39,528 bases of DNA from Terriglobales bacterium (lineage in GTDB: Bacteria > Zixibacteria > MSB-5A5 > RBG-16-43-9), in contig DATKKH010000142.1 in NCBI GenBank assembly GCA_035543035.1, positions 1 to 39,528 of the forward strand, in the 5' to 3' direction. Position numbers and translations under genes: made by a program. A model generated the notes under the pieces. It saw nothing but the letters and a program-made list of their open reading frames with translations, did not search any database and had not been told where the DNA came from. Below are positions 6,007-35,946 of the stretch, piece by piece. Position 1 is the stretch's first letter. Each line of letters starts with the position of its first letter.

Positions 6007-6244
6007 GAAGCATTTGAAAAGAGAATTATATTGAAGGATTTTTGTTGTTGCTCATATTTTGACGAAATCGCTGAACCGGTTATGTCACAGAAGGTTAGAT
6101 AAGCTGAAAGGTTACCTTAGTCCATTTTGTGCAGAAATTGAGCAGCTTAGAACGTTGATACGCGGTTGACTATGCTGTGTCTGAATAACTTATGAAATGG
6201 CATACACTTTGCATACAAGAATATTATTCATCAGGAGGAAAAGC

Positions 6245-8809
6245 ATGCTAAGAAAAAAGCGTTGTCTCTTGTCATTTGTTTTAATTATATTTTTTCTTTT
6301 TAGTTTGAATGCTTTTGCCAAAGGACCTACCCACCCCTCAGTCAATACTTTTTCCCATAGTGCTCCTGGTCAGTACGATGTTCCGGATTCCTGGACTCAG
6401 TGGCTGAACCTGCATACGGACTGGGCTACTTCGGGACCACCTTGGTATTTCCCATATTTCAACCGAAACCAGCCGGTGGGTGATTATTATAATGTCCACC
6501 ATCAGGAGCCCGGAGCAGAGGATTATAATAGCCTGGTTCAGTGGTTCACCGGCAAGGGATACAGAAAAGAAACTGCCTTTGCTCACTGGAAAGTAAATAC
6601 TACCCAGAGTTATGACGGCGAGACCAGGCTGATCCCGGGATGGGATCCGGCCAACGATGCCAATGGAGACGGGATAAGGGACTACCCGGCAGATTACGGC
6701 TACATAGGCCAGTTCACCGTGGGCACCAACTGGATCCGTCATTCGGGTAAGAACTGGACCGCCAATACCTGGCAGAACGACTATGTAAAATTAGGCTGGT
6801 GGGACGACCCGGATACGGTCTCCTTTACAGTTACCAGAAACAGCCGGGATACGATCTTCGTCAACGGAACTATCCCCTCACATACTTATTATTTCTACAT
6901 AGTTGACGACCGTTCTGCCCCTGACCATAATGCAGTTGCCATGTCGGACAGCTTGGCCCATATCTGCGTTTATTACTGGACCCAGATAGCGGTGAATATA
7001 ACCCATCCGGAGGTGAAAAAATGGACTGGACACTATTGCGCTGAAAGGATGCGAAGCTGGAGAAGCTCCTATTCTGGCCCGGTAGCCGTGTTCCACGATA
7101 ACATCTGGGATATGATCCCGACCGAGATGTTAGGAAGAGCACTTTACCAAAACGTCCCTACTTATGGCGGGGTGATGTTAGAGGCTATGCAAAGTAATCT
7201 TGATTTCTCCAACAATTTTAAGGATTGTCTGAAATCGATAAAAGATAGCCTTACCGCATTCGTGTCCGGACAGACTTACCTGATAGGAAATGTGGGCAAC
7301 TACTCCAGCGAGTCTTTTGATACCCTTTTAAGAAGGTGTGATGGCGTTTGGTATGAGAGGTGGACCGGCATTGACCAGCCCCTGGGAACTTTTGAAGAAC
7401 ATAAAGCCGCAGTGGAAAGACACCAGGCTATGGGCAAGTATACATTCTTAAATATGTGCGGAGATGGGGACCTGATAGGATTGGGCGACCGGGACAAGAA
7501 CTTTTCCCTCGCAAGCTACTACATAACTTATGATGATAAAAGCTATTATCTTTTCGACACCAGCCCCAGTTACGGAGTAAAGTTAGCTGACACTACGAAC
7601 TGGTGGTACGGTTCCATTAGTGCGGACCTGGGAACACCTGTGGCTGCGGCTTATACCCTCGCTTCAGGATATATCTGGAGAAGAGATTTTACCAAAGGGG
7701 CGGTCTTGTTTAAGCCCAGACCGGATGGCGGCTCCAATTACACTGATAGCACTTTGGTAAGTTTGGGGGGATATTATTACCGTTTGGATACAGGGGGAAA
7801 AAAGTCTCCGTCTGACTCTTTGAACCGGGTCTATGTGAAGAATGCCGAGGGAGTCATTCTGATAAAGACCAGTTCCCAGAGCCAGACCCAGCTTGATCCT
7901 CCCCTGCCTCTTTCTCCTACAAACGGCTCTACTGTGGATACTACCCAGCCGACCCTGATCATACAAAATGTCCAGGATTCAGCCGGCAGGCCCATACTAT
8001 ATTATTTTGAGCTGGACACAGCCACTCAGTTTGCTTCACAGAAAAAAAAGGAATCAACCCCTTTTGAGTTGGAAGCGGGTCAGGACAGTACAACCCGCTG
8101 GACTGTCCCGACTCCGCTCTCCTCTGGAGTTTATTACTGGAGAAGCCGGGCTTATACTAATACTTATCCCAGCGACACCAGCCAGCCTACTCCAGTTTAT
8201 CATTTCCAGCTCTCCACCAGCGTAGGGGATTCGATATATACTCTTTTTCTCCCTTCCCCGGTTGGTGATGAGCAGGTGGTTACTCTTAGACCAACTCTCA
8301 ATGCCCAATTCATCCATAATGGTTTTGATCGGAGCCAGATCCGGGTAAAATTTCTGGTAGGCGAGGATCCTTCATTTAATCCTGGCAGGACAATCTTCTC
8401 TCCTTACATCGATATACCGGATAACCTCACGCTATTCTGGACCCTGGACCGGGATTTACAGGAGGGCAGAAGATATTTATGGAGGGTAAACGTTTATGAT
8501 CAGGATGTCTTGGTTGCAGCCAGCGATCCCGCCTCTTTTTTGACTGGCTCAATCCACGTTTTCCCTAATCCGTTCAAGCCTTCAGCGGGCGATAATTCTA
8601 TAACCTTCAGGAATATCCCTCTCTATTCAAAGATACAGATTACGACCTTATCCGGAGAGTTAGTTCGGGAGCTTACCGGTAACTCTTCGACCGACGTGGT
8701 CTGGGATGCAAAGAATAAGGAGGGCAGGGACTTAGCCTCAGGGGTTTATTATTACCGGGTCGATTTCCAGTCCGGCAGCTCTACTGGAAAGTTAGCTATA
8801 ATCCGATAA
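6245..8809 (+). CDS. secreted multidomain protein: possible TIM-barrel glycoside-hydrolase-like N-domain, two tandem beta-sandwich repeats, FlgD-Ig/T9SS-type C-terminal domain
   Basis: I prefer the ATG at 6245, which has AGGAGG 6 nt upstream and gives the signal peptide MLRKKRCLLSFVLIIFFLFSLNAFA/KG. There is a DxNxDGxxD Ca-loop (DANGDGIRD). The C-terminus (FPNPFKPS...ASGVYYYRV...KLAIIR) matches the FlgD-Ig/Por-secretion-tail pattern. Confidence 0.75.
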   Translation: MLRKKRCLLSFVLIIFFLFSLNAFAKGPTHPSVNTFSHSAPGQYDVPDSWTQWLNLHTDWATSGPPWYFPYFNRNQPVGDYYNVHHQEPGAEDYNSLVQWFTGKGYRKETAFAHWKVNTTQSYDGETRLIPGWDPANDANGDGIRDYPADYGYIGQFTVGTNWIRHSGKNWTANTWQNDYVKLGWWDDPDTVSFTVTRNSRDTIFVNGTIPSHTYYFYIVDDRSAPDHNAVAMSDSLAHICVYYWTQIAVNITHPEVKKWTGHYCAERMRSWRSSYSGPVAVFHDNIWDMIPTEMLGRALYQNVPTYGGVMLEAMQSNLDFSNNFKDCLKSIKDSLTAFVSGQTYLIGNVGNYSSESFDTLLRRCDGVWYERWTGIDQPLGTFEEHKAAVERHQAMGKYTFLNMCGDGDLIGLGDRDKNFSLASYYITYDDKSYYLFDTSPSYGVKLADTTNWWYGSISADLGTPVAAAYTLASGYIWRRDFTKGAVLFKPRPDGGSNYTDSTLVSLGGYYYRLDTGGKKSPSDSLNRVYVKNAEGVILIKTSSQSQTQLDPPLPLSPTNGSTVDTTQPTLIIQNVQDSAGRPILYYFELDTATQFASQKKKESTPFELEAGQDSTTRWTVPTPLSSGVYYWRSRAYTNTYPSDTSQPTPVYHFQLSTSVGDSIYTLFLPSPVGDEQVVTLRPTLNAQFIHNGFDRSQIRVKFLVGEDPSFNPGRTIFSPYIDIPDNLTLFWTLDRDLQEGRRYLWRVNVYDQDVLVAASDPASFLTGSIHVFPNPFKPSAGDNSITFRNIPLYSKIQITTLSGELVRELTGNSSTDVVWDAKNKEGRDLASGVYYYRVDFQSGSSTGKLAIIR

Positions 8810-8938
8810 AAATCATAGCAATACGAAATTAAAACTTTGTCGGTCAGTCATCCTTACCAAAGTGAGGGTGTGCAATTCCTTTGTGAATTAATCTTGAGGA
8901 AATGTCTGACTACCTGACTTCTGTTTTTATTCATTTTT

Positions 8939-8992
8939 GGTTCGATAAATCGAACCCCAACTACTTCAAATTGTAGGGGCTTGATTTATCAA
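8939..8992. repeat. cluster of small hairpins / REP-like palindromes downstream of the secreted-protein gene
   Basis: GGTTCGATAAATCGAACC (8939-8956) is a palindrome. CCCCAACTAC...GTAGGGG (8955-8979) is an imperfect hairpin. TTGATTTATCAA lies at 8981-8992. The 12-mer TCGATAAATCGA is the reverse complement of TCGATTTATCGA at 25234-25245. Confidence 0.5.
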
Positions 8993-9015
8993 ACTCTTTA
9001 CACTATTTTGTTTAT

Positions 9016-10413
9016 ATGGAACAATCAAAAAGCAGAGCTCTTCCGGAAAGAGGTGAAGGAGTTACCCGGATAGTCACTTCCGAGAAGCTCTGGTATTTAT
9101 TGCTGATCTTCGTCTCCCTGGTTTCCGGGGCTTTTCTTCTTTTTATCCCCAGGCCGGAGATTATGCCAGCAATAGCCCTAGCCCTGATAATCGGAATTAC
9201 CTTTTTCTTCTACCCTTATCTGGGGGTCTTAGCTTACATCATCTTATCCTATATGCGGTTTGAGGAGACCATTCCTGCTCTGGGTCATCTGCATTTAGCC
9301 AAACTTCTGACAGTCACCCTGATAGTGGTGTGGGTTTTGAAAACCGGTATCACCAAATCCAGACTTTACCTTCAGGAAAACGGGCTTATCCTTTTATACC
9401 TTTTTTACCTGGTTATGGTTTTTTCCATCCCCTTTAGTTACTGGCCTTCCCGCTCTTTAGATATTTTCGTAGAAATGCTAAAGATTTTGGTTTTCACAAT
9501 TCTTTTCATCCATCTGATAAGTACTACCAAAAAACTGAAGACCTTCTTTTGGATTTTCCTCCTGGTAAATGGCTACCTGGCTCTGAGTGCGATCAAAAAT
9601 TTTCTGGTCCTGGGGCAGGCAGCAGTTGCCTCACGGGTTGGTGGATCAGGTGGTTTCTTGGGGGATGCTAATGATTTTGCCTTAGCTTTAAGCATCGCAC
9701 TCCCTTTTGCGTTCTATCTTTTCTTGGCGGAGAAAAAAAAGAATCTGAAGCTGATTTATTTTCTTTTCATCAGTCTTTACACCCTGGGAATTATCTCCAC
9801 TGCTTCCCGCGGAGGTTTTATCACCCTGGTCTTTCTTTTTCTCTATTTCATTTTCAAGAGCAAGCATAAGCTGGTTGGGGTTTTCTCGGTGCTGCTCATT
9901 TTCCTTATGATATTTTTCTTCGCTCCCAAGGAATACTGGCAGAGACAGATGACCATCACCACGTATCAGCAGGATGAATCTGCCATGGGAAGGATCGGAG
10001 CCTGGAAAGCCGGGATCAGGATGTTTGCCGACAGACCCTTGACCGGAGTTGGGGTGGGTGTTTATGAGGTGGCGTATGGGGTAAAATACGGTGGGAAAAG
10101 CGGTCCCTGGTTTTCTCCGCATAATGCTTATGTCGAAGTCGGAGCAGAATTGGGCTTTTTCGGAATAATTCTCTATCTGGGATTGATGCTATATGTTTAT
10201 ACTCTGGCAAACTCTTTGATTAAATCGTTTAGAGAGGAAAACTATCTGAAGTGGATCTCCCAGGGATTAAAAGGAGCTCTTTTAGCCTATGCTGTCGGGA
10301 GTTTCTTTTTGTCGGTCGGGCTATACCCTCATCTCTACCTTTTGCTGGGTATGGTGATAGTAATAGGGATTTTGAAATCTGAGCAGAAGAAGGAAATATG
10401 TCAGGAGACTTAA
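9016..10413 (+). CDS. O-antigen polymerase/ligase family membrane protein (Wzy_C domain), likely EPS polymerase
   Basis: 465 aa polytopic protein. It has ISTASRGGFITL and a periplasmic loop ...GRIGAWKAGIRMFADRPLTGVGVG...SPHNAYVEVGAELGFFG, characteristic of Wzy/WaaL-family proteins. Confidence 0.75.
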   Translation: MEQSKSRALPERGEGVTRIVTSEKLWYLLLIFVSLVSGAFLLFIPRPEIMPAIALALIIGITFFFYPYLGVLAYIILSYMRFEETIPALGHLHLAKLLTVTLIVVWVLKTGITKSRLYLQENGLILLYLFYLVMVFSIPFSYWPSRSLDIFVEMLKILVFTILFIHLISTTKKLKTFFWIFLLVNGYLALSAIKNFLVLGQAAVASRVGGSGGFLGDANDFALALSIALPFAFYLFLAEKKKNLKLIYFLFISLYTLGIISTASRGGFITLVFLFLYFIFKSKHKLVGVFSVLLIFLMIFFFAPKEYWQRQMTITTYQQDESAMGRIGAWKAGIRMFADRPLTGVGVGVYEVAYGVKYGGKSGPWFSPHNAYVEVGAELGFFGIILYLGLMLYVYTLANSLIKSFREENYLKWISQGLKGALLAYAVGSFFLSVGLYPHLYLLLGMVIVIGILKSEQKKEICQET

Positions 10414-31085: not shown

Positions 31086-31195
31086 GGCTGTAGCAGGTTT
31101 CTTCCTTCATCACCCAGGGAAATTATCCTCTGAATCTGATTCTGAAGTTCCCTCACATTCCCGGGCCAGGTATAATGAGTGAACGATCGAGGATT
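31086..31195 (-). pseudogene. remnant of a sigma-54-dependent transcriptional activator (NtrC-family AAA+ C-terminal fragment)
   Basis: The minus-strand translation reads ...NPRSFTHYTWPGNVRELQNQIQRIISLGDEG..., containing the diagnostic WPGNVREL motif. An in-frame TGA (31196-31198) lies immediately upstream and there is no AAA+ core. A frameshifted continuation (..GKLGSEILDRSLI..) may extend to about 31225. Confidence 0.55.
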
Positions 31196-31249
31196 TCACT
31201 CCCCAATTTTCCGTTACCATTGTCAGAGTAAGACTAGTAAAGTGATTCA

Positions 31250-31687
31250 CTAAAGGACGGTGATACCTATACCAATTTTATAATTAATGATGTCGGCCCT
31301 ACTCACAGGTGGGGCTAAGGGCAATTTCAGAGATGGCCTCATTAAAATATTGTTATATTCAATGCCAGCCAGAATAAAAAGTTCTCCCAGTTTCAGTTGC
31401 AATCCAGTGCCTACCAGAAAACCCGGATAAGTTTCAGACACATTTCTAATCTCCCACTGAAAATGCCATTGGCTATCAAACTGAGGAAAAGGATATTCCA
31501 CGCTTAGATGATAAACGCCGCCACCCATCTCCACAAAAGGTGTGATGGCACCTTTTCCTACATTCGTCTTCGCGTAGAAAACCGCAGCTGTCCAATCCCA
31601 GTCAGCGAAATGGCTCCTTTGCATGCCACCGGGATCAGTTAAAAATACCCATTCATTTCCCCTTAAAGGCAAACTCTCTATTTGCAA
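31250..31687 (-). CDS. beta-barrel OMP-like fragment with no ATG start and no signal peptide (possibly a truncated gene)
   Basis: Alternating hydrophobic beta-strand pattern (..YKIGIGITVL end). The tool start is TTG. The frame is open up to the TAA of the upstream 79-aa gene and contains no ATG and no signal sequence. Confidence 0.3.
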   Translation of the reverse strand: MQIESLPLRGNEWVFLTDPGGMQRSHFADWDWTAAVFYAKTNVGKGAITPFVEMGGGVYHLSVEYPFPQFDSQWHFQWEIRNVSETYPGFLVGTGLQLKLGELFILAGIEYNNILMRPSLKLPLAPPVSRADIINYKIGIGITVL

Positions 31688-31738
31688 TCCTAAACGAAAA
31701 GTGAAATAAGAAGTTTTTTTGAAGCTGCCACAAACTGT

Positions 31739-31978
31739 TTACACCTTGATTACCCCAGTAACTCCGAATATTGCTATAATTAGACCTACTATCCCGAGAA
31801 GACCTAGATATCCAAGGTCTTTTTTCATATAACGGAAATTAGTGAAGAAGGCGAAAAAGCAGAAGTTAAACAGGTAGTAGGGGTCGTGGCGGACAAACGC
31901 CATAAAACCATAGAGTCCTAGGAGGCCAAAGATGCCATGTAAAATCTTGTCTTTCCTGCGTTCCTTGTCTTCATTCAT
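31739..31978 (-). CDS. 79-aa hydrophobic membrane protein (about 3 helices), unknown function
   Basis: Strong SD (AAGGAGAGGAGA, 7 nt from the ATG). Gly/Phe-rich helices: ILHGIFGLLGLYGFMAF, LFNFCFFAFF, LGLLGIVGLIIAIFGV. It lies 53 nt downstream of the SPASM ORF. Confidence 0.6.
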   Translation of the reverse strand: MNEDKERRKDKILHGIFGLLGLYGFMAFVRHDPYYLFNFCFFAFFTNFRYMKKDLGYLGLLGIVGLIIAIFGVTGVIKV

Positions 31979-32031
31979 GACGGTATCTCCTCTCCTTATT
32001 AAGAAAGTTGTTGATCATAAGGCCAAAAAAA

Positions 32032-32418
32032 TTATCTACTTTTAAAGATAGTAGTATCTCTGGAAGGAAGGATACATCCGATATGATTCTTTTTTTCATC
32101 TTTTGGCTTGTCAAACTCAAACCAGTTACCTAAGTCTTGAGATCTGGCCCAGCTGCATAGTACACCTGTTCGCTCCAGGACATAGATAGACTTGATAAAA
32201 CAAAAGTTGCAGTATGCTTGGTATGGGCAATCTGGGCAGAGCTGAGGTGTTGGTTCCCTAAGCTTGGAAAGATAGCTCACTATCGGTTTTTGAAAAATTT
32301 CATCAATTGAGCTGTTTAACATATTCCCAAGTGCTAAGTAGGTTTCCGGCAGTAACGGACAGGGCCTAACTACTCCAGTTGGTCCCAATACACAACTCTT
32401 ATACCCCGCTCCACAATT
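32032..32418 (-). CDS. SPASM domain (auxiliary 4Fe-4S cluster region) of the radical SAM maturase, in frame with the upstream ORF after one TGA
   Basis: The translation directly after the TGA is NCGAGYKSCVLGPTGVVRPCP...LCPDCPYQAYCNFCF...GVLCSW, which is a SPASM 7-Cys pattern. The tool's TTG start (32388) would remove the first Cys (CGAG). Confidence 0.7.
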   Translation of the reverse strand, partial: NCGAGYKSCVLGPTGVVRPCPLLPETYLALGNMLNSSIDEIFQKPIVSYLSKLREPTPQLCPDCPYQAYCNFCFIKSIYVLERTGVLCSWARSQDLGNWFEFDKPKDEKKNHIGCILPSRDTTIFKSR

Positions 32419-33450
32419 TCACCTCTTTAAAAAGTGTTCAATTTGGTCTTCTTTGAGCTGAAACAAAAAGTTCCCATATCTTTCGTGTAGGTATTTTGGA
32501 AGCTCCTCAAGTTTCTTGAGGTGCACTGGGCTCCAACTTAGACGTAAGTCCTTAGCTCGCCCTACATCAGTTATTGGAGAATAAGAGAACATATAAGCAC
32601 CACATTGCTTTGCAATCTGTAGAGTATTCTCAATATCATTTACATTAGAGGGTACGACATTCATAGCCACCTTCACCAATATATTATCCCTTGCCAAAAA
32701 TTCAATACCTTTTTTTGCCTTTTCGAAACAGCCTGGAACTCCTCTTAGGCCATCGTGAACAACGGCTGTCGAACCGTCTAAATCGATCTGAACCATCAAT
32801 TTATTTTTGTACTTCGCGATCCCCTTAGCCACTGTCTTGTCAACTAAGGTTCCATTTGTCAAGATGGAGACTAGAATAAAACGTGTTCCGCAGAAATCGA
32901 CAATCTCTAAGAAGTCCGGGTGAAGCAAAGGTTCTCCACCTGTAAGCTCAACGATCCTTATGCCATTTTCAAGGAGTGTATTCAGACACTTTAAAAGCTG
33001 AGTAGTAGAGAGTCGTTGATATTTTCGAACGTCGCTCTCGTTATAACAATAAATACATTTTAAATTGCATTGAGAGGTCAGCTCTATTGAGAAATGTACA
33101 GGTATGAAATATTGTCTTCTGCCGGTGACTCTCATTTTTCTATAAGAAGGCTCATCCTCCGTTCCAATGATGCCTCGTTTAATTGATTCTTCTAGAAAAC
33201 CTGTGATCGCTTTTAGGCTCATTTCCTTTCTTTGTAGTCTCTGCAGCAAATTTTGTTTAGTTAAACCTTCGTTACATTCCAATAGTATATCTGTTCCTAA
33301 TGAGTTGACGTAGTGTAGATTGGTTTTGAGAAAATCAAGTGTTCTATATCGGGCTTCCGAACTTTCCTGGAAAACTAAAGTCTCATCAGGAGTTAGATGA
33401 ATTTCTGTTCCTTCGCACAAAGTGAGATATTTCTGTTCGCATCCGACCAT
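32419..33450 (-). CDS. radical SAM peptide maturase core with N-terminal PqqD-like RiPP recognition element (ends at the in-frame TGA 32419-32421)
   Basis: CX3CX2C at C128/C132/C135 (SQCNLKCIYCY) and the ELTGGEPLL SAM motif. N-terminal ~100 aa fit an RRE pattern (YVNSLGTDILLECNEGLTKQNLLQRL...ITGFLEESIKRGIIG). SD is AAGGAG, 5 nt from the ATG. Confidence 0.85.
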   Translation of the reverse strand: MVGCEQKYLTLCEGTEIHLTPDETLVFQESSEARYRTLDFLKTNLHYVNSLGTDILLECNEGLTKQNLLQRLQRKEMSLKAITGFLEESIKRGIIGTEDEPSYRKMRVTGRRQYFIPVHFSIELTSQCNLKCIYCYNESDVRKYQRLSTTQLLKCLNTLLENGIRIVELTGGEPLLHPDFLEIVDFCGTRFILVSILTNGTLVDKTVAKGIAKYKNKLMVQIDLDGSTAVVHDGLRGVPGCFEKAKKGIEFLARDNILVKVAMNVVPSNVNDIENTLQIAKQCGAYMFSYSPITDVGRAKDLRLSWSPVHLKKLEELPKYLHERYGNFLFQLKEDQIEHFLKR

Positions 33451-33475
33451 TTTTTCTCCTTTCCCTTTCTATAGC

Positions 33476-33499
33476 AAAGCCTCCAACATAGGAGGCTTT
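33476..33499 (-). promoter_or_regulatory. intercistronic stem-loop between the precursor and maturase genes
   Basis: Minus strand: AAAGCCTCC-tatgtt-GGAGGCTTT, a perfect 9-bp stem. It lies 30 nt after the precursor stop and 25 nt before the maturase ATG. The only downstream T-run is the TTT at the base of the stem. Confidence 0.55.
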
Positions 33500-33529
33500 G
33501 GTTGACTCGATTATGACATCTCTGTCAGC

Positions 33530-33718
33530 TTAAAACGGAGTAGGAAGGGCGCCAACAAGAGCATAAGCCAAAGTTGCTCTGTAAGTTGTATAGCTTTTCA
33601 CAGTCGGCTGATTATCTCCGCAAGCGTTGCAGAATTCACAAATAAAACAGGATGCACAAAGACCACAAGCCATAAGCTCAGTCGATGGTGGCTCTATGTA
33701 TCTTGGTTCATCTGTCAT
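33530..33718 (-). CDS. Cys-rich RiPP precursor peptide candidate (62 aa, six Cys in strict C-x-x periodicity)
   Basis: MTDEPRYIEPPSTELMACGLCASCFICEFCNACGDNQPTVKSYTTYRATLAYALVGALPTPF. It has a near-consensus SD (AAAGGAGGTGA) upstream and lies immediately upstream of, and co-oriented with, the RRE-rSAM-SPASM gene. Confidence 0.8.
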   Translation of the reverse strand: MTDEPRYIEPPSTELMACGLCASCFICEFCNACGDNQPTVKSYTTYRATLAYALVGALPTPF

Positions 33719-33752
33719 CTCTAACTCACCTCCTTTTAGATTTTATTTTTTC

Positions 33753-33811
33753 GCTCCGCCCAGGCCCCCTCTACCCAGGGCGTTAGAGCCTTTCGGCCCG
33801 CAGGGCGGAGC
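33753..33811. repeat. 59-nt GC-rich inverted repeat (GCTCCGCCC...GGGCGGAGC) upstream of the precursor gene
   Basis: 9-bp terminal arms GCTCCGCCC / GGGCGGAGC with nested GC pairs inside. It shares the GGGCGGAG/CTCCGCCC arms with the hairpin at 25191-25213. On the plus strand it is followed by TTTTGTTG. Confidence 0.6.
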
Positions 33812-33860
33812 TTTTGTTGCGCCAGAAAAGAACTGAGGGGGTAAAAACCAACCGGCTGAT

Positions 33861-33869
33861 ACTATAACA
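33861..33869 (-). promoter_or_regulatory. extended -10 promoter candidate (TGTTATAGT) for the precursor/maturase operon
   Basis: The minus strand reads TGTTATAGT, close to TGnTATAAT. No good -35 element. It would give a ~135-nt leader containing the GC-rich hairpin. Confidence 0.3.
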
Positions 33870-34165
33870 AAAAGTATGCCGATCCGATTTTCTATGTTCG
33901 AAACTGTTTAACTTGTTGAAAAATAAAGAAGTCAATCTTTGGTGGATTTGCTTGATGAGGCTTTGTAGAAATGAAAAATCTCAAAAAATGGAGAGCCATT
34001 CTCCAAATCTGGAGAGTCGATATTGGATTTCCTTATTTTGATGTGGAGAAAAGTAGTCCGTAGAGTTCCTAATATAATGATAATGTAACTTTGGGCAGGA
34101 GAAGCTCCGCAGTCTCGTCAAAATAAGTGAACTTGAGGAGTATAATGAGTCTGATGTAAAAAAGG

Positions 34166-34196
34166 AAAAGACCACCCAGGAGCCGGGTGGTCTTTT
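34166..34196. terminator. bidirectional intrinsic terminator
   Basis: AAAAGACCACCC-aggagcc-GGGTGGTCTTTT. U-tracts follow on both strands (plus: TTTTGATT; minus: TTTTCCTTTTTTAC). Confidence 0.75.
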
Positions 34197-34244
34197 GATT
34201 AGGAGGTGCTAATTGTCGTAACAAAAAGCAACTAATCTAAGTTA

Positions 34245-34325
34245 CTATTGTCCGCCAGCAGATGATAAAGGAGCAATCTTCTCCTCTAACTCCTCCACCT
34301 CCAGGATTAATTCTTTCAGCTCCAT
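34245..34325 (-). CDS. 26-aa acidic, leader-peptide-like small ORF (MELKELILEVEELEEKIAPLSSAGGQ)
   Basis: Below the ORF-track size cutoff. SD is TAAGGAGGAGGTGA, ending 5 nt before the ATG at 34325. It has double stops (TAG TAA) and the strong terminator lies 48 nt downstream. Confidence 0.5.
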   Translation of the reverse strand: MELKELILEVEELEEKIAPLSSAGGQ

Positions 34326-34437
34326 AGAATCACCTCCTCCTTATGTTCAAAATCTGAGCAATCGAAGATAAAAAAATTTCCTGCCTTTTTAGGATCGACT
34401 AAGTTGCTAAATCGACCTCACCTTTAGAAATCCGTTT

Positions 34438-34623
34438 TCAAAAAGCGAGCGGATGGGGATAGTTATAATGCAAAACTACCCAGCTAATTACATCCCTCTC
34501 CTCAACCATTAATCTAACCCTGTGATAAGTCTTGTCAAGCAAAATCTGATAATTTTTAAAAATTTCCTGAAGAAATAATGGACGTGCCTCAATATATTGT
34601 AAGATATCTCTGTTAATATACAA
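34438..34623 (-). pseudogene. possible degenerate ParE/RelE-like toxin remnant
   Basis: TTG start only. ..RDILQYIEARPLF.. and ..YHRVRLMVEERDVISWVVLH.. resemble the N- and C-terminal motifs of ParE-type toxins, but the middle is missing and there is no antitoxin partner. Confidence 0.25.
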
Positions 34624-34803
34624 GATATTGAGATAAAAAATTTAGCAATCAGAATACATTTTCTGGAATTTGGAAACAATTTGTGTCTCTTTATCAGGAA
34701 TCCTAAGGTCAGAAAAATCTTTCTCTGCCCGAAAACCTGGTTTGAATCAGAATTGAGAAAAGATTGTGTTATTCCTTTTTTTCAAAAAATACGTTTTAAT
34801 AAC

Positions 34804-34832
34804 TTGCTAATCTGAATAGTCGAATATATAAT
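34804..34832 (+). promoter_or_regulatory. sigma-70-like promoter for the ABC ATPase/MFS operon
   Basis: TTGCTA (34804-34809), 17-nt spacer, TATAAT (34827-34832), 19 nt before the ATG. No SD in the short leader. Confidence 0.5.
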
Positions 34833-34851
34833 TGATTAAAATATTGTAACC

Positions 34852-35946
34852 ATGCACAAACTTGAGTTAAAAGCAGTAAGCAAGCATTTCGACAAGAATC
34901 AAGTCTTGAGAGACATCAGCTTCGAGGTGGAAGAAGGCGAGTTCTTTGTGCTGGTGGGGCCCTCCGGTTGCGGCAAAAGCACTATCCTCAGGCTGATCGT
35001 GGGCTTAGAGGAGGTTTCCACAGGTGAAATCTATCTGGATGGTCTTTTGATCAATAACCTGCCTGCCAAACAAAGGGACATGGCTATGGTTTTCCAGAAC
35101 TATGCCCTGTATCCTCATTTCACGGTATTTGAGAATCTTGCCTTTCCCCTGAAACTAAGAGGATATTCAAAAGAAGAAATCAGTCTGAGAGTTAATGAGA
35201 CTGCTGAAATCCTGGGATTGGAAAAACTGCTTCAGAGAAAACCCAAGGTGCTATCCGGAGGAGAAAGACAGAGAGTTGCTTTGGGTAGGGCAATAGTCAG
35301 AAAACCAAAACTTTTTCTTTTTGATGAGCCCTTATCCAATTTAGATGCACTCCTCAGGGTCCAGATGAGGGGAGAGCTCTTGAAACTGCATAAAAGATTA
35401 AAAAGTTCAGTGGTATATGTGACCCATGACCAGTTAGAAGCCATGACCTTAGGCAACAGGTGTCTGGTCTTGAAGGAAGGGACTATCCAGCAGACTGGAA
35501 CGCCTTTTGAACTGTATAGATCACCTTCTAATATCTTTGTAGCGTCTTTCATAGGAACACCCTCGATAAATTTATTAAAAGGAGTTCTGACTCCAGCTCT
35601 GGAATTTAAATTGAGTGATAAGTATGGGTTCTCGCTACCCGAGAAATTTGAACAGAGATTAAAAAGGTTCTCCGGCAGTGAAATCTGCCTGGGAATAAGA
35701 CCTGAGGATGTCCGAATTTCTTCAGAAAAACGGAATCCAAAATTCGAGCTGGAGCAGATCGAGCCGGTTGGCGCAGAAGCTTTCCTTTATTTCAAGGTTG
35801 GAGACCAGAAATTGGTGACCAGGGAAAGAGGTTATGAAAATCTCAAGCCAGGCTTTTGCCTGGAACTGTCTTTTAACCTGGATAAAGCAGTTTTTTTCGA
35901 TTTGAAAACTGGAGAAAATATCTTTAAGGATTTGAAATCTAAATAG
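34852..35946 (+). CDS. ABC transporter ATP-binding protein, MalK/UgpC/MsmX-type (sugar importer ATPase with C-terminal regulatory/TOBE-like domain)
   Basis: Walker A GPSGCGKST, Q-loop VFQNYALYPH, signature LSGGERQRV, Walker B LFLFDEPLS, H-loop VTHD. Confidence 0.9.
   Translation: MHKLELKAVSKHFDKNQVLRDISFEVEEGEFFVLVGPSGCGKSTILRLIVGLEEVSTGEIYLDGLLINNLPAKQRDMAMVFQNYALYPHFTVFENLAFPLKLRGYSKEEISLRVNETAEILGLEKLLQRKPKVLSGGERQRVALGRAIVRKPKLFLFDEPLSNLDALLRVQMRGELLKLHKRLKSSVVYVTHDQLEAMTLGNRCLVLKEGTIQQTGTPFELYRSPSNIFVASFIGTPSINLLKGVLTPALEFKLSDKYGFSLPEKFEQRLKRFSGSEICLGIRPEDVRISSEKRNPKFELEQIEPVGAEAFLYFKVGDQKLVTRERGYENLKPGFCLELSFNLDKAVFFDLKTGENIFKDLKSK

What the first reader, a model, noticed from the sequence alone, without database searches (positions are those of the whole stretch)
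31739..33869. Apparently unclassified RiPP locus: 62-aa precursor with a (C-x-x)5-C cysteine ladder next to an RRE-radical SAM-SPASM maturase
Three co-oriented, closely spaced minus-strand genes make up the locus.
(i) A 62-codon ORF with a near-perfect SD (AAAGGAGGTGA) encodes MTDEPRYIEPPSTELMA-CGLCASCFICEFCNAC-GDNQPTVKSYTTYRATLAYALVGALPTPF. The six Cys fall at exactly every third residue (18, 21, 24, 27, 30, 33).
(ii) 80 nt downstream is an enzyme with a PqqD-like recognition element at its N-terminus, a CX3CX2C motif (SQCNLKCIYCY), a GGEPLL motif and a C-terminal SPASM 7-Cys region.
(iii) A 79-aa hydrophobic protein follows.
A Cys-rich short peptide plus an RRE-rSAM-SPASM enzyme is the established signature of sactipeptide/ranthipeptide (SCIFF-type) thioether RiPPs. 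However, this precursor does not resemble the SCIFF, subtilosin, thuricin CD or thurincin H sequences I can recall. It combines a short leader, a six-rung Cys ladder and a 29-residue Cys-free tail. No protease or peptide exporter is encoded nearby. It sits in a patch full of gene scars, inside an organism type where RiPPs are poorly explored.
Basis: partly seen in the sequence, partly recalled or inferred. Interest (0 to 1): 0.88.

Follow-up and report, generated by a model that had tools for sequence, protein, structure and literature searches.

The report
Six-cysteine thurincin-H-like sactipeptide cluster, damaged copy
This is a small gene cluster for a ribosomal peptide, probably antibiotic-like, of the already known thurincin H (sactipeptide) type, with six cysteine "rungs" where characterised relatives have four; the copy in this window looks broken, with a stop codon inside the modifying enzyme and no exporter or regulator gene.

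Summary
The 62-aa ORF with Cys at 18/21/24/27/30/33, its strong ribosome-binding site, the adjacent radical SAM gene and the 79-aa hydrophobic ORF are all real.

An in-frame TGA (window 32419-32421) separates the radical SAM part (343 aa) from the SPASM part. The two closest relatives have GGA (Gly) at that codon, and TGA is the commonest stop in the window.

The locus is not unclassified:
- Thurincin H has the same CxxCxxCxxC donor ladder.
- Its maturase ThnB aligns with the intact 81%-identical homologue P0001 at 29% identity (E 8e-43) and falls inside the same clade in a neighbour-joining tree.
- Its exporter ThnT matches the ABC exporter found in intact relatives (33% identity, E 1e-83).
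- Small (Cxx)3-5C ORFs sit directly upstream of the closest maturase relatives in bacteria and archaea, and nowhere else in about 165 loci examined.

Best reading: a thurincin-H-type nested-hairpin sactipeptide cluster with six potential S-to-alpha-carbon bridges. Here it is a recently inactivated or mis-assembled copy that also lacks the exporter and the sigma-54 activator seen in relatives. The chemistry is inferred, not shown.

Novelty: new member of a known kind. Interest is moderate to low.

The parts
33530..33718 (-). Precursor peptide gene (62 aa). Conserved leader MTDEPRYIEPPSTELMA; six-Cys donor ladder CGLCASCFICEFCNAC (residues 18-33); 29-residue Cys-free acceptor tail ending in A-x-P-x-P-F.
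   Evidence: sequence. Four orthologues keep all six Cys plus leader residues D3, E4, P5, Y7 and P10, and tail residues T44, A57, P59 and P61. dN/dS against L002 is 0.27. No Pfam or NCBIfam family matches.
33726..33736 (-). Shine-Dalgarno sequence AAAGGAGGTGA of the precursor gene
   Evidence: Conserved in L001, L002, L084 and L085.
33753..33811 (-). Conserved GC-rich hairpin (GCTCCGCCC ... GGGCGGAGC) between the putative promoter and the Shine-Dalgarno sequence, in the 5' leader of the precursor transcript. Function unknown.
   Evidence: Alignment A2 shows an invariant outer stem and a differing but still complementary inner stem in L084/L085. Fold z-score -2.55. A second copy precedes the 927-aa gene in L001.
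33866..33880 (-). Imperfect sigma-54-type promoter candidate GGCATACTTTTTGTT (GG-N10-GT). Weak evidence.
   Evidence: Conserved in window, L002 and L001. L084 has TGGCATACCTTTTGC 312 nt upstream of its precursor. Sigma-54 activator genes lie directly upstream of the precursor in L002 and L084. The window site fails the GC at -12.
33475..33500 (-). Stem-loop CAAAGCCTCC-TATGTT-GGAGGCTTTG between the precursor and maturase genes. Probably a transcript-stabilising or attenuating hairpin (inferred).
   Evidence: the same stem occurs in L001 (z -4.6) and L002 (z -3.4), and a shorter one in L084.
32422..33450 (-). Maturase, N-terminal part (codons 1-343): putative RRE (about residues 1-100) plus the radical SAM core with CNLKCIYC and GGEPLL.
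   Evidence: Pfam Radical_SAM 2.6e-22. NCBIfam AlbA is the best hit at 151.8 bits. 81% identical to the intact 472-aa P0001. dN/dS against L001 is 0.18.
32419..32421 (-). In-frame TGA (codon 344), a single G>T change relative to GGA (Gly) in L001 and L002
   Evidence: Homologues have Gly, Lys, Arg or Pro here, so it is not selenocysteine. TGA ends 14 of the 26 longest stop-free reading frames (200 codons or more, not all of them genes) in the window.
32032..32418 (-). Maturase, SPASM part (codons 345-472), carrying all seven auxiliary-cluster Cys. Same frame as the N-terminal part, but cut off from it by the TGA.
   Evidence: Pfam SPASM 5.1e-08. AlbA model positions 338-436, 57.5 bits. No further lesions; dN/dS against L001 is 0.13.
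31739..31978 (-). 79-aa membrane protein with two or three hydrophobic segments. Candidate immunity or accessory protein (inferred).
   Evidence: Conserved directly after the maturase in L001 (two paralogues), L084 and L085. 84% identical to the L001 copy; dN/dS 0.10. Hydropathy. Only sub-threshold DUF3796 and WGxxGxxG hits.
31250..31729 (-). Outer-membrane beta-barrel-like ORF lacking about the first 59 codons (no signal peptide). A likely gene remnant at the position where relatives carry the ABC exporter.
   Evidence: tblastn with the L001 OMP_b-brl protein: residues 60-203 match, 28% identity, E 1.5e-14.
31103..31230 (-). Frameshifted fragment (residues about 670-712) of the TPR/sigma-54 activator that precedes the precursor in L002. 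A gene scar.
   Evidence: blastn 78% identity over 125 nt. tblastn in two frames. Domain content of the L002 protein.

Best explanation
The locus is a member of the thurincin H (ThnA/ThnB) kind of type I, nested-hairpin sactipeptide gene cluster.

Proposed mechanism in intact relatives, with the basis for each step:
1. A sigma-54 activator turns on the operon (inferred from neighbouring genes).
2. The 62-aa precursor is made in excess. Its conserved leader (M-A/T-DEP-R/K-Y..P) is bound by the N-terminal RRE of the maturase (inferred from fold and family).
3. The radical SAM/SPASM enzyme abstracts an alpha-hydrogen from a residue in the Cys-free tail and joins that carbon to a ladder cysteine. 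Repeating this up to six times gives nested S-to-C-alpha bridges, from the innermost Cys33 outwards to Cys18. The chemistry is inferred from homology to ThnB, AlbA and SkfB. The number and register of bridges are hypotheses. One tail register holds small residues in all five orthologues (window S42, T45, A48, A51, L54, A57).
4. A ThnT-like ABC exporter secretes the peptide, and the 79-aa membrane protein may protect the producer (inferred).

In this window the cluster is crippled. A GGA>TGA change cuts the maturase before every SPASM cysteine. The exporter is absent. Only a fragment of the activator remains. The nonsense change is recent or an assembly error, because the downstream frame is otherwise intact and shows purifying selection.
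For: - Same donor pattern as thurincin H. Its bridges are Cys4/7/10/13 to Ser28/Thr25/Thr22/Asn19 (PMC8172795), and its precursor sequence was verified in 31 Bacillus plasmids.
- ThnB against P0001: 29% identity over 339 aa, E 8e-43.
- ThnT against the L001 exporter: 33% identity over 552 aa, E 1e-83, with the same gene order.
- AlbA is the best NCBIfam model for the window protein, for P0001 (219 bits) and for ThnB itself (149 bits).
- SkfB is the best solved structure by sequence (3.4e-27) and by fold (Foldseek 5.4e-25, TM 0.79). The model has pLDDT 86.
- Ladder ORFs with 4-6 Cys lie upstream of the closest maturase relatives from Thermoproteota, Methanobacteriaceae, Chloroflexota, Acidobacteria, Bacteroidales and Deltaproteobacteria, and of none of the more distant ones.
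- Ladder-linked maturases form one NJ clade, and ThnB falls inside it.
- Every tail is long enough for n nested bridges.
- Damage to this copy. dN/dS of 0.13 after the stop.
Against: - No chemistry was observed. S-C-alpha cannot be told from S-C-beta/gamma by sequence.
- Identity to ThnB is only 29%. The NJ trees have long branches and no bootstrap support.
- All AlbA scores lie far below the family cut-off (850 bits).
- Pfam PqqD is not detected in the window protein.
- A few clade members (L011/L096, L156) have no visible ladder ORF.
- The acceptor register is a guess, and the loop length differs by two residues among orthologues.
- The TGA could be a sequencing or assembly error or a minority allele. 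The exporter and regulator could be encoded elsewhere in the genome.
Confidence: 0.7

Rival explanations
1. The cluster in this organism is fully functional. The TGA is a sequencing or assembly error or a minority allele, or it is read through often enough. The exporter and regulator are encoded elsewhere in the genome.
For: - There is only one lesion. The 128 codons after it have no frameshift or further stop, and dN/dS is 0.13.
- The precursor and the 79-aa gene are intact, with good ribosome-binding sites.
- The window is a metagenome-assembled contig.
Against: - TGA is the commonest stop in the window.
- NCBI's annotation also ends the protein there.
- The exporter that follows the small membrane gene in L001 and L084 is missing from the same position. 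Gene fragments occupy that place.
- The activator survives only as a frameshifted 43-codon fragment.
Confidence: 0.3
2. The maturase family makes a different cross-link or modification on the ladder peptides. Candidates are ranthipeptide-type S-C-beta/gamma thioethers, or non-nested (type II) connectivity, rather than nested sactionine bridges.
For: - SPASM maturases that are close in sequence can differ in chemistry, and full-length similarity is a poor predictor (PMC10288494).
- CteB, a ranthisynthase, is also a clear fold match.
- The acceptor residues are unknown.
Against: - The best matches at every level are hairpin-forming sactisynthases: AlbA, SkfB and ThnB.
- ThnB falls inside the ladder clade.
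- N-terminal donor Cys followed by a Cys-free tail at least 6+3(n-1) residues long is the type I layout.
- The precursor matches no NCBIfam model, including SCIFF-type models.
Confidence: 0.12
3. The small ORF is not a substrate of the radical SAM enzyme. It would be a Cys-rich metal-binding or disulfide-rich peptide that merely neighbours an enzyme with another (non-RiPP) substrate.
For: - No direct evidence of modification.
- The (Cxx)n pattern could in principle ligate metals.
Against: - Precursor-maturase adjacency on the same strand recurs in more than 20 loci from at least seven labelled lineages of bacteria and archaea, and only next to this maturase clade.
- The leader is conserved while the core is variable.
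- The enzyme has an RRE-type N-terminal domain.
- Non-RiPP SPASM enzymes score far lower.
Confidence: 0.03

Closest known systems
Thurincin H / thuricin 17 cluster (thnA-thnB-thnT...) of the Bacillus cereus group; type I nested-hairpin sactipeptide
   Same: - Donor cysteines at every third residue (CWSCLVCAAC against CGLCASCFICEFCNAC), followed by a Cys-free tail. In thurincin H the tail carries acceptors at every third residue.
- Short leader.
- The maturases are homologous (29% identity, E 8e-43) and ThnB falls inside the ladder clade.
- The ABC exporters are homologous in intact relatives (33% identity, E 1e-83).
- Gene order is precursor, maturase, exporter, with a small extra ORF.
   Different: - Six Cys instead of four.
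- 17-residue leader instead of 9.
- Longer tail (29 aa) ending in a conserved A-x-P-x-P motif.
- A 79-aa membrane protein sits between maturase and exporter.
- A sigma-54 activator is the neighbouring regulator, where thn has a GntR-type regulator.
- No ThnP-type protease or ABC-2 immunity pair was seen.
- The host is an uncultured bacterium labelled Terriglobales, not Bacillota.
- In this window the maturase is truncated and the exporter is absent.
Subtilosin A maturase AlbA (NCBIfam NF012164) and sporulation killing factor maturase SkfB (PDB 6EFN)
   Same: - Best-scoring curated family model (AlbA).
- Best solved structure by sequence and by fold (SkfB).
- RRE + radical SAM + auxiliary-cluster domain architecture.
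- Both install Cys-S to C-alpha bridges.
   Different: - Scores are far below the AlbA equivalog cut-off (about 209-219 bits against 850).
- The subtilosin and SKF precursors have irregular Cys spacing and are head-to-tail cyclised.
- SkfB has a twitch-type domain with a [2Fe-2S] auxiliary cluster, not a full SPASM domain (PMC8172795).
SCIFF / ranthipeptide systems (CteB, PapB, QhpD-type)
   Same: A Cys-rich short precursor next to an RRE-radical SAM-SPASM enzyme. CteB is a significant fold match.
   Different: - The precursor matches no NCBIfam or Pfam model.
- CteB matches much more weakly than SkfB (1.7e-11 against 3.4e-27 by sequence).
- The donor Cys are clustered N-terminally in a regular ladder, not spread through the C-terminal part.

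Membership tests
Sactipeptide cluster, type I (nested hairpin, thurincin H-like) | Precursor with donor Cys clustered in the N-terminal half of the core, followed by a Cys-free acceptor region long enough for nested bridges | tested here: met
   Cys at 18-33 and a 29-residue Cys-free tail, against a minimum of 21 for six bridges in the thurincin register. The same holds for all 20 family precursors collected.
Sactipeptide cluster, type I (nested hairpin, thurincin H-like) | Maturase homologous to characterised sactisynthases (ThnB, AlbA, SkfB) | tested here: met
   ThnB 29% identity, E 8e-43. AlbA is the top NCBIfam model. SkfB is top in the PDB by sequence and by fold. ThnB lies inside the ladder clade in the NJ tree.
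Sactipeptide cluster, type I (nested hairpin, thurincin H-like) | One polypeptide carrying the CX3CX2C radical SAM site together with the SPASM/twitch auxiliary-cluster cysteines | tested here: not met
   All motifs are present in the DNA, but an in-frame TGA at 32419-32421 separates them in this window. The feature is met in relatives P0001, P0003 and P0004.
Sactipeptide cluster, type I (nested hairpin, thurincin H-like) | N-terminal RiPP recognition element (PqqD-like) | tested here: inconclusive
   Pfam PF05402 is not found in the window protein at E<=0.1. It is precomputed in relatives at about 38% identity. The AlphaFold model of 81%-identical P0001 has strands at 8-29 and 43-48 followed by three helices at 50-91. 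Foldseek alignments to RRE-bearing SkfB, SuiB and CteB span 390-479 columns.
Sactipeptide cluster, type I (nested hairpin, thurincin H-like) | Cys sulfur to alpha-carbon thioether bonds in the mature product | not testable with these tools
   Needs mass spectrometry and NMR on modified peptide.
Sactipeptide cluster, type I (nested hairpin, thurincin H-like) | Dedicated export function in the cluster | tested here: not met
   No ThnT-like exporter in the window. The only tblastn hit is a generic ABC ATPase at 34858-35349. An exporter is present in L001 and L084.
AlbA equivalog (NCBIfam NF012164) | Whole-protein score at or above the curated cut-off of 850 bits | tested here: not met
   151.8 + 57.5 bits for the two window fragments and 219 bits for intact P0001. 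It is AlbA-like, not AlbA.
SCIFF / other curated Cys-rich RiPP precursor families (NCBIfam, Pfam) | Precursor matches a curated precursor model | tested here: not met
   No family at E<=0.1 for the window precursor. None at E<=1 for seven of eight family precursors; L006 has only a weak NHLP-leader hit.
Non-RiPP SPASM enzymes (anaerobic sulfatase maturase, heme/NirJ, MoaA) | Best similarity to these enzymes and no cognate small peptide gene | tested here: not met
   These enzymes score below AlbA in NCBIfam. anSME is at Foldseek rank 12, E 3e-13, against SkfB at 5e-25. A conserved peptide gene is present.

The most novel reading that the evidence does not exclude
In the intact relatives (L001, L084, L085, L002), all six ladder cysteines are bridged to the tail. 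That would give a six-fold nested sactionine hairpin. The characterised sactipeptides I found described have at most four bridges (thurincin H; huazacin and ruminococcin C from the same review and my own knowledge).

The ThnB-like 'Cxx-ladder' family, with 4-6 rungs and some members carrying long Nif11/NHLP-like leaders, would then be a widespread class. It would be uncharacterised experimentally outside Bacillota and would reach into Bacteroidales, Chloroflexota, Acidobacteria, Thermoproteota and methanogen MAGs, possibly under sigma-54 control.
Probability: 0.4. Interest if true: 0.5.

Novelty: new member of a known kind. Interest (0 to 1): 0.33.

Why it matters
If the intact relatives make the predicted product, it would extend the thurincin H scaffold from four to six nested thioether bridges. 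It would also show that this scaffold is made well outside Bacillota, including in archaeal MAGs. That is useful for RiPP genome mining, because no curated precursor model exists. It would also supply very rigid, protease-stable peptide scaffolds.

It would not change how sactipeptide biosynthesis is understood. The copy in this window is probably dead, so its main value is as a pointer to the intact orthologues (L001, L084).

Tried and rejected
- **Selenocysteine at the TGA: rejected.** Homologues have Gly, Lys, Arg or Pro there. Rfam found no SECIS element or any other family in the window.
- **Alternative genetic code (TGA as Gly or Trp): rejected.** TGA ends 14 of the 26 longest stop-free frames, and long ORFs read normally in table 11.
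- **Curated precursor families: none.** No Pfam or NCBIfam hit for the window precursor or most relatives.
- **Word-indexed search with the precursor:** found only one relative. The exhaustive search added only two real ones plus a spurious repeat protein.
- **Canonical sigma-54 promoter (TGGCAC-N5-TTGC, up to 2 mismatches):** found upstream of the precursor only in L084. The window sites are imperfect, so regulation stays an inference.
- **Extra copies of the 5'-leader hairpin in the window:** the one pattern tried found none, but its 5-35 nt gap was too short to match even the known copy (43 nt between the arms), so this test is uninformative.
- **Sigma-70 promoter and terminator scan:** not above the shuffled expectation.
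- **Exporter, second 79-aa paralogue or 927-aa neighbour of L001 in the window:** absent.
- **'Catalytic site proximity' residue table of Precord et al.:** could not be used, because the supplement is not held.
- **Literature searches for an already described Cxx-ladder family outside Bacillota:** nothing specific found.
- **Independent taxonomy of the contig:** not pursued. Only the NCBI label 'Terriglobales bacterium' is available.


Full report
**1. What is in the window**

On the minus strand, searches show four things.
- A 62-codon ORF (33530-33718) encodes MTDEPRYIEPPSTELMACGLCASCFICEFCNACGDNQPTVKSYTTYRATLAYALVGALPTPF. Cys fall at 18, 21, 24, 27, 30 and 33. AAAGGAGGTGA (33726-33736) precedes it.
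- A radical SAM gene starts at 33450, 79 nt after the precursor stop. It carries CNLKCIYCY and GGEPLL.
- A SPASM-type cysteine pattern lies further downstream in the same frame.
- A 79-aa hydrophobic ORF occupies 31739-31978.

As assembled, the window encodes a 343-aa radical SAM protein (32422-33450; stop codon TGA at 32419-32421) and a separate, start-less SPASM frame (32032-32418). NCBI annotates only the 343-aa product, as 'radical SAM protein [Terriglobales bacterium]' (P0002).

**2. The stop codon**

The intact 472-aa homologue P0001 (81% identity) has Gly at this position. P0003 has Lys, P0004 has Arg and P0005 has Pro.

At the DNA level the window reads AGG TGA AAT where L001 and L002 read AGG GGA AAC, so the difference is a single G>T change. 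TGA terminates 14 of the 26 longest stop-free frames in the window, and Rfam finds nothing in the window. Selenocysteine and an alternative genetic code are therefore rejected.

All seven conserved SPASM cysteines (C346, C364, C405, C408, C414, C417, C432) lie after the stop. From established knowledge of AlbA and ThnB, the auxiliary clusters are needed for thioether formation, so the truncated product should be inactive.

The 128 codons after the stop have no other lesion. Their dN/dS against L001 is 0.13, compared with 0.18 for the N-terminal part. The change is therefore recent, or it is an assembly or population artefact. I cannot distinguish these possibilities without reads.

**3. What the enzyme is**

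- Pfam finds Radical_SAM and SPASM.
- In NCBIfam the best model for both fragments is the subtilosin maturase AlbA (151.8 and 57.5 bits). This is ahead of the mycofactocin, heme, ScmE, SkfB and StsB models, and far below the AlbA cut-off of 850.
- Intact P0001 scores 219 bits on AlbA. The bona fide thurincin H maturase ThnB scores 149 bits on the same model, which is also its best hit.
- The closest solved structure by sequence is the sactisynthase SkfB (E 3.4e-27). PqqE scores 1e-12 and CteB 1.7e-11.
- An AlphaFold model of P0001 (pLDDT 86) has an N-terminal domain of strands followed by three helices (residues about 8-91), then the radical SAM barrel and the SPASM region.
- Foldseek ranks SkfB first (E 5.4e-25, TM 0.79), then SuiB and CteB. 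anSME is much lower.
- Pfam PqqD itself is not detected in the window protein, but it is precomputed for relatives at about 38% identity.

**4. The precursor-maturase pairing is conserved**

Four orthologous loci (L001, L002/L003, L084, L085) carry 61-62-aa peptides. All six Cys are invariant, as are G19 and leader residues M1, D3, E4, P5, Y7 and P10. The tail is much more variable apart from T44 and a terminal A-x-P-x-P.

An exhaustive phmmer search of 1.84 billion representatives finds only these relatives plus one spurious repeat protein, so this subfamily is rare.

The wider pattern comes from scans with the maturase profile.
- In GTDB genomes and JGI metagenomes, (Cxx)3-5C ORFs lie immediately upstream, on the same strand, of every one of the closest relatives: L004-L010, L086, L088, L089 and L091-L095.
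- These loci come from MAGs labelled Thermoproteota, Methanobacteriaceae, Brevefilum (Chloroflexota), Acidobacteria, Bacteroidales, Dysgonomonadaceae and Deltaproteobacteria.
- No such ORF occurs in the distant loci: 21 ladder ORFs among 16,356 small ORFs overall.
- In NJ trees the ladder-linked maturases form one clade.
- The exceptions inside that clade are a contig-end truncation (L090), a transposase insertion (L087) and two or three basal loci with no ladder.

**5. Relation to thurincin H**

The sactipeptide review (PMC8172795) gives the thurincin H bridges as Cys4-Ser28, Cys7-Thr25, Cys10-Thr22 and Cys13-Asn19. Donors and acceptors are both spaced every third residue.

The 40-aa precursor METPVVQPRDWTCWSCLVCAACSVELLNLVTAATGASTAS, recalled from memory, was verified at 100% identity in 31 Bacillus plasmids.

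From one of those plasmids (L170):
- ThnB aligns with P0001 at 29% identity over 339 residues (E 8e-43).
- The exporter ThnT aligns with the L001 ABC exporter at 33% identity over 552 residues (E 1e-83).
- Gene order is the same.
- Added to the tree, ThnB falls inside the ladder clade, and its twelve nearest neighbours include eleven ladder loci.

This is the same design with six rungs instead of four.

**6. Proposed mechanism**

Shown:
- conserved leader plus conserved Cys ladder;
- homology to sactisynthases and to a sactipeptide exporter;
- tail lengths of 19-30 residues, always at least 6+3(n-1) for n = 4-6 Cys.

Inferred:
- RRE-leader binding;
- alpha-hydrogen abstraction on tail residues and S-C-alpha bond formation, giving up to six nested bridges.

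In all five orthologues one of the three tail registers is made of small or beta-branched residues and ends at the invariant Ala (window S42, T45, A48, A51, L54, A57). I offer that only as a testable guess, because the loop length differs by two residues among orthologues.

The 79-aa protein follows the maturase in all orthologous loci and is duplicated in L001. It is under strong constraint (dN/dS 0.10) and has two or three hydrophobic segments. An immunity or accessory role is an inference.

A stem-loop between the precursor and maturase genes is conserved (33475-33500). It resembles the intergenic hairpins of other RiPP operons (my own knowledge).

**7. State of the window copy**

Relatives carry a TPR/sigma-54 activator directly upstream of the precursor (L002, L084). 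They carry a ThnT-like exporter after the small membrane gene (L001, L084).

In the window:
- neither gene is present;
- a frameshifted 43-codon fragment of the activator lies at 31103-31230;
- an outer-membrane beta-barrel-like ORF lacking its first ~59 codons lies at 31250-31729;
- homology with L002 upstream of the precursor ends near 33890.

Together with the nonsense codon, this looks like a decaying cluster. Exporter and regulator genes elsewhere in the genome cannot be excluded.

**8. Novelty and interest**

I found no paper describing this subfamily or a six-bridge sactipeptide. No curated precursor model matches.

Large-scale mining has already catalogued thousands of putative sacti- and ranthipeptide clusters (3,421 in PMC10288494). 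The design principle here is that of a characterised compound. I therefore rate it a new member of a known kind, of moderate-to-low interest. The intact orthologues, not this window, are the worthwhile experimental targets.

Noticed in passing
window 33753-33811 (minus strand); L001 4379-4510: The GC-rich hairpin GCTCCGCCC...GGGCGGAGC and the preceding ~60 nt upstream of the precursor are repeated in L001 in front of an unrelated 927-aa FlgD_ig/Por_Secre_tail gene. L084 and L085 keep the outer stem but have a different, still complementary, inner stem. This may be a shared regulatory or 5'-leader element of unknown function.
   Followed up: partly
L086, L087, L088 (maturase at 8001-9395 in each): A four-Cys ladder cluster: precursor MELPRLLSVSAASSSCDICVGCAACGLGGFAPIIVVAVAIAALS, maturase P0024, an ABC ATPase and a 230-aa protein. 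It sits among T4SS coupling-protein, transposase, AbiE and restriction genes, and is recorded in 121 blocks of the collection, so it looks mobile. In L087 a transposase occupies the place of the precursor.
   Followed up: partly
L006, L007, L008, L010, L092 (ORFs just upstream of the maturase): Five-Cys ladder precursors in Acidobacteria, Bacteroidales, Dysgonomonadaceae and Deltaproteobacteria MAGs have long (69-79 aa) leaders that look like Nif11/NHLP leaders. Only L006 gives a weak NHLP hit (E 0.0022). The same core design is thus used with two very different leader types.
   Followed up: partly
L091 2375-2572 and 2650-2796: Two tandem, diverged four-Cys ladder precursor genes precede one maturase, like the tandem thnA copies of thurincin H.
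   Followed up: no
window 33900-34850: About 950 bp upstream of the locus has no ORF longer than 64 aa. It contains a strong terminator-like hairpin (34166-34196, minus strand, 14-bp stem plus T-run) with no obvious gene to terminate. This could be another degraded gene or a non-coding transcript; Rfam finds nothing.
   Followed up: no
whole window; window 8561-8806: The contig has 43% G+C and is labelled Terriglobales by NCBI. That G+C seems low to me for this order (my own recollection, not checked). The C-terminus of the 870-aa ORF (6197-8809) weakly resembles the Por_Secre_tail end of the L001 927-aa protein (28% identity, E 1.8e-6). The binning or taxonomy of the contig may deserve a check.
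   Followed up: no
P0124 (hit): A 211-aa 'protein' made of about four copies of a 60-residue unit containing CFFCPFC matched the precursor weakly. It looks like a translated tandem DNA repeat, not a relative.
   Followed up: no
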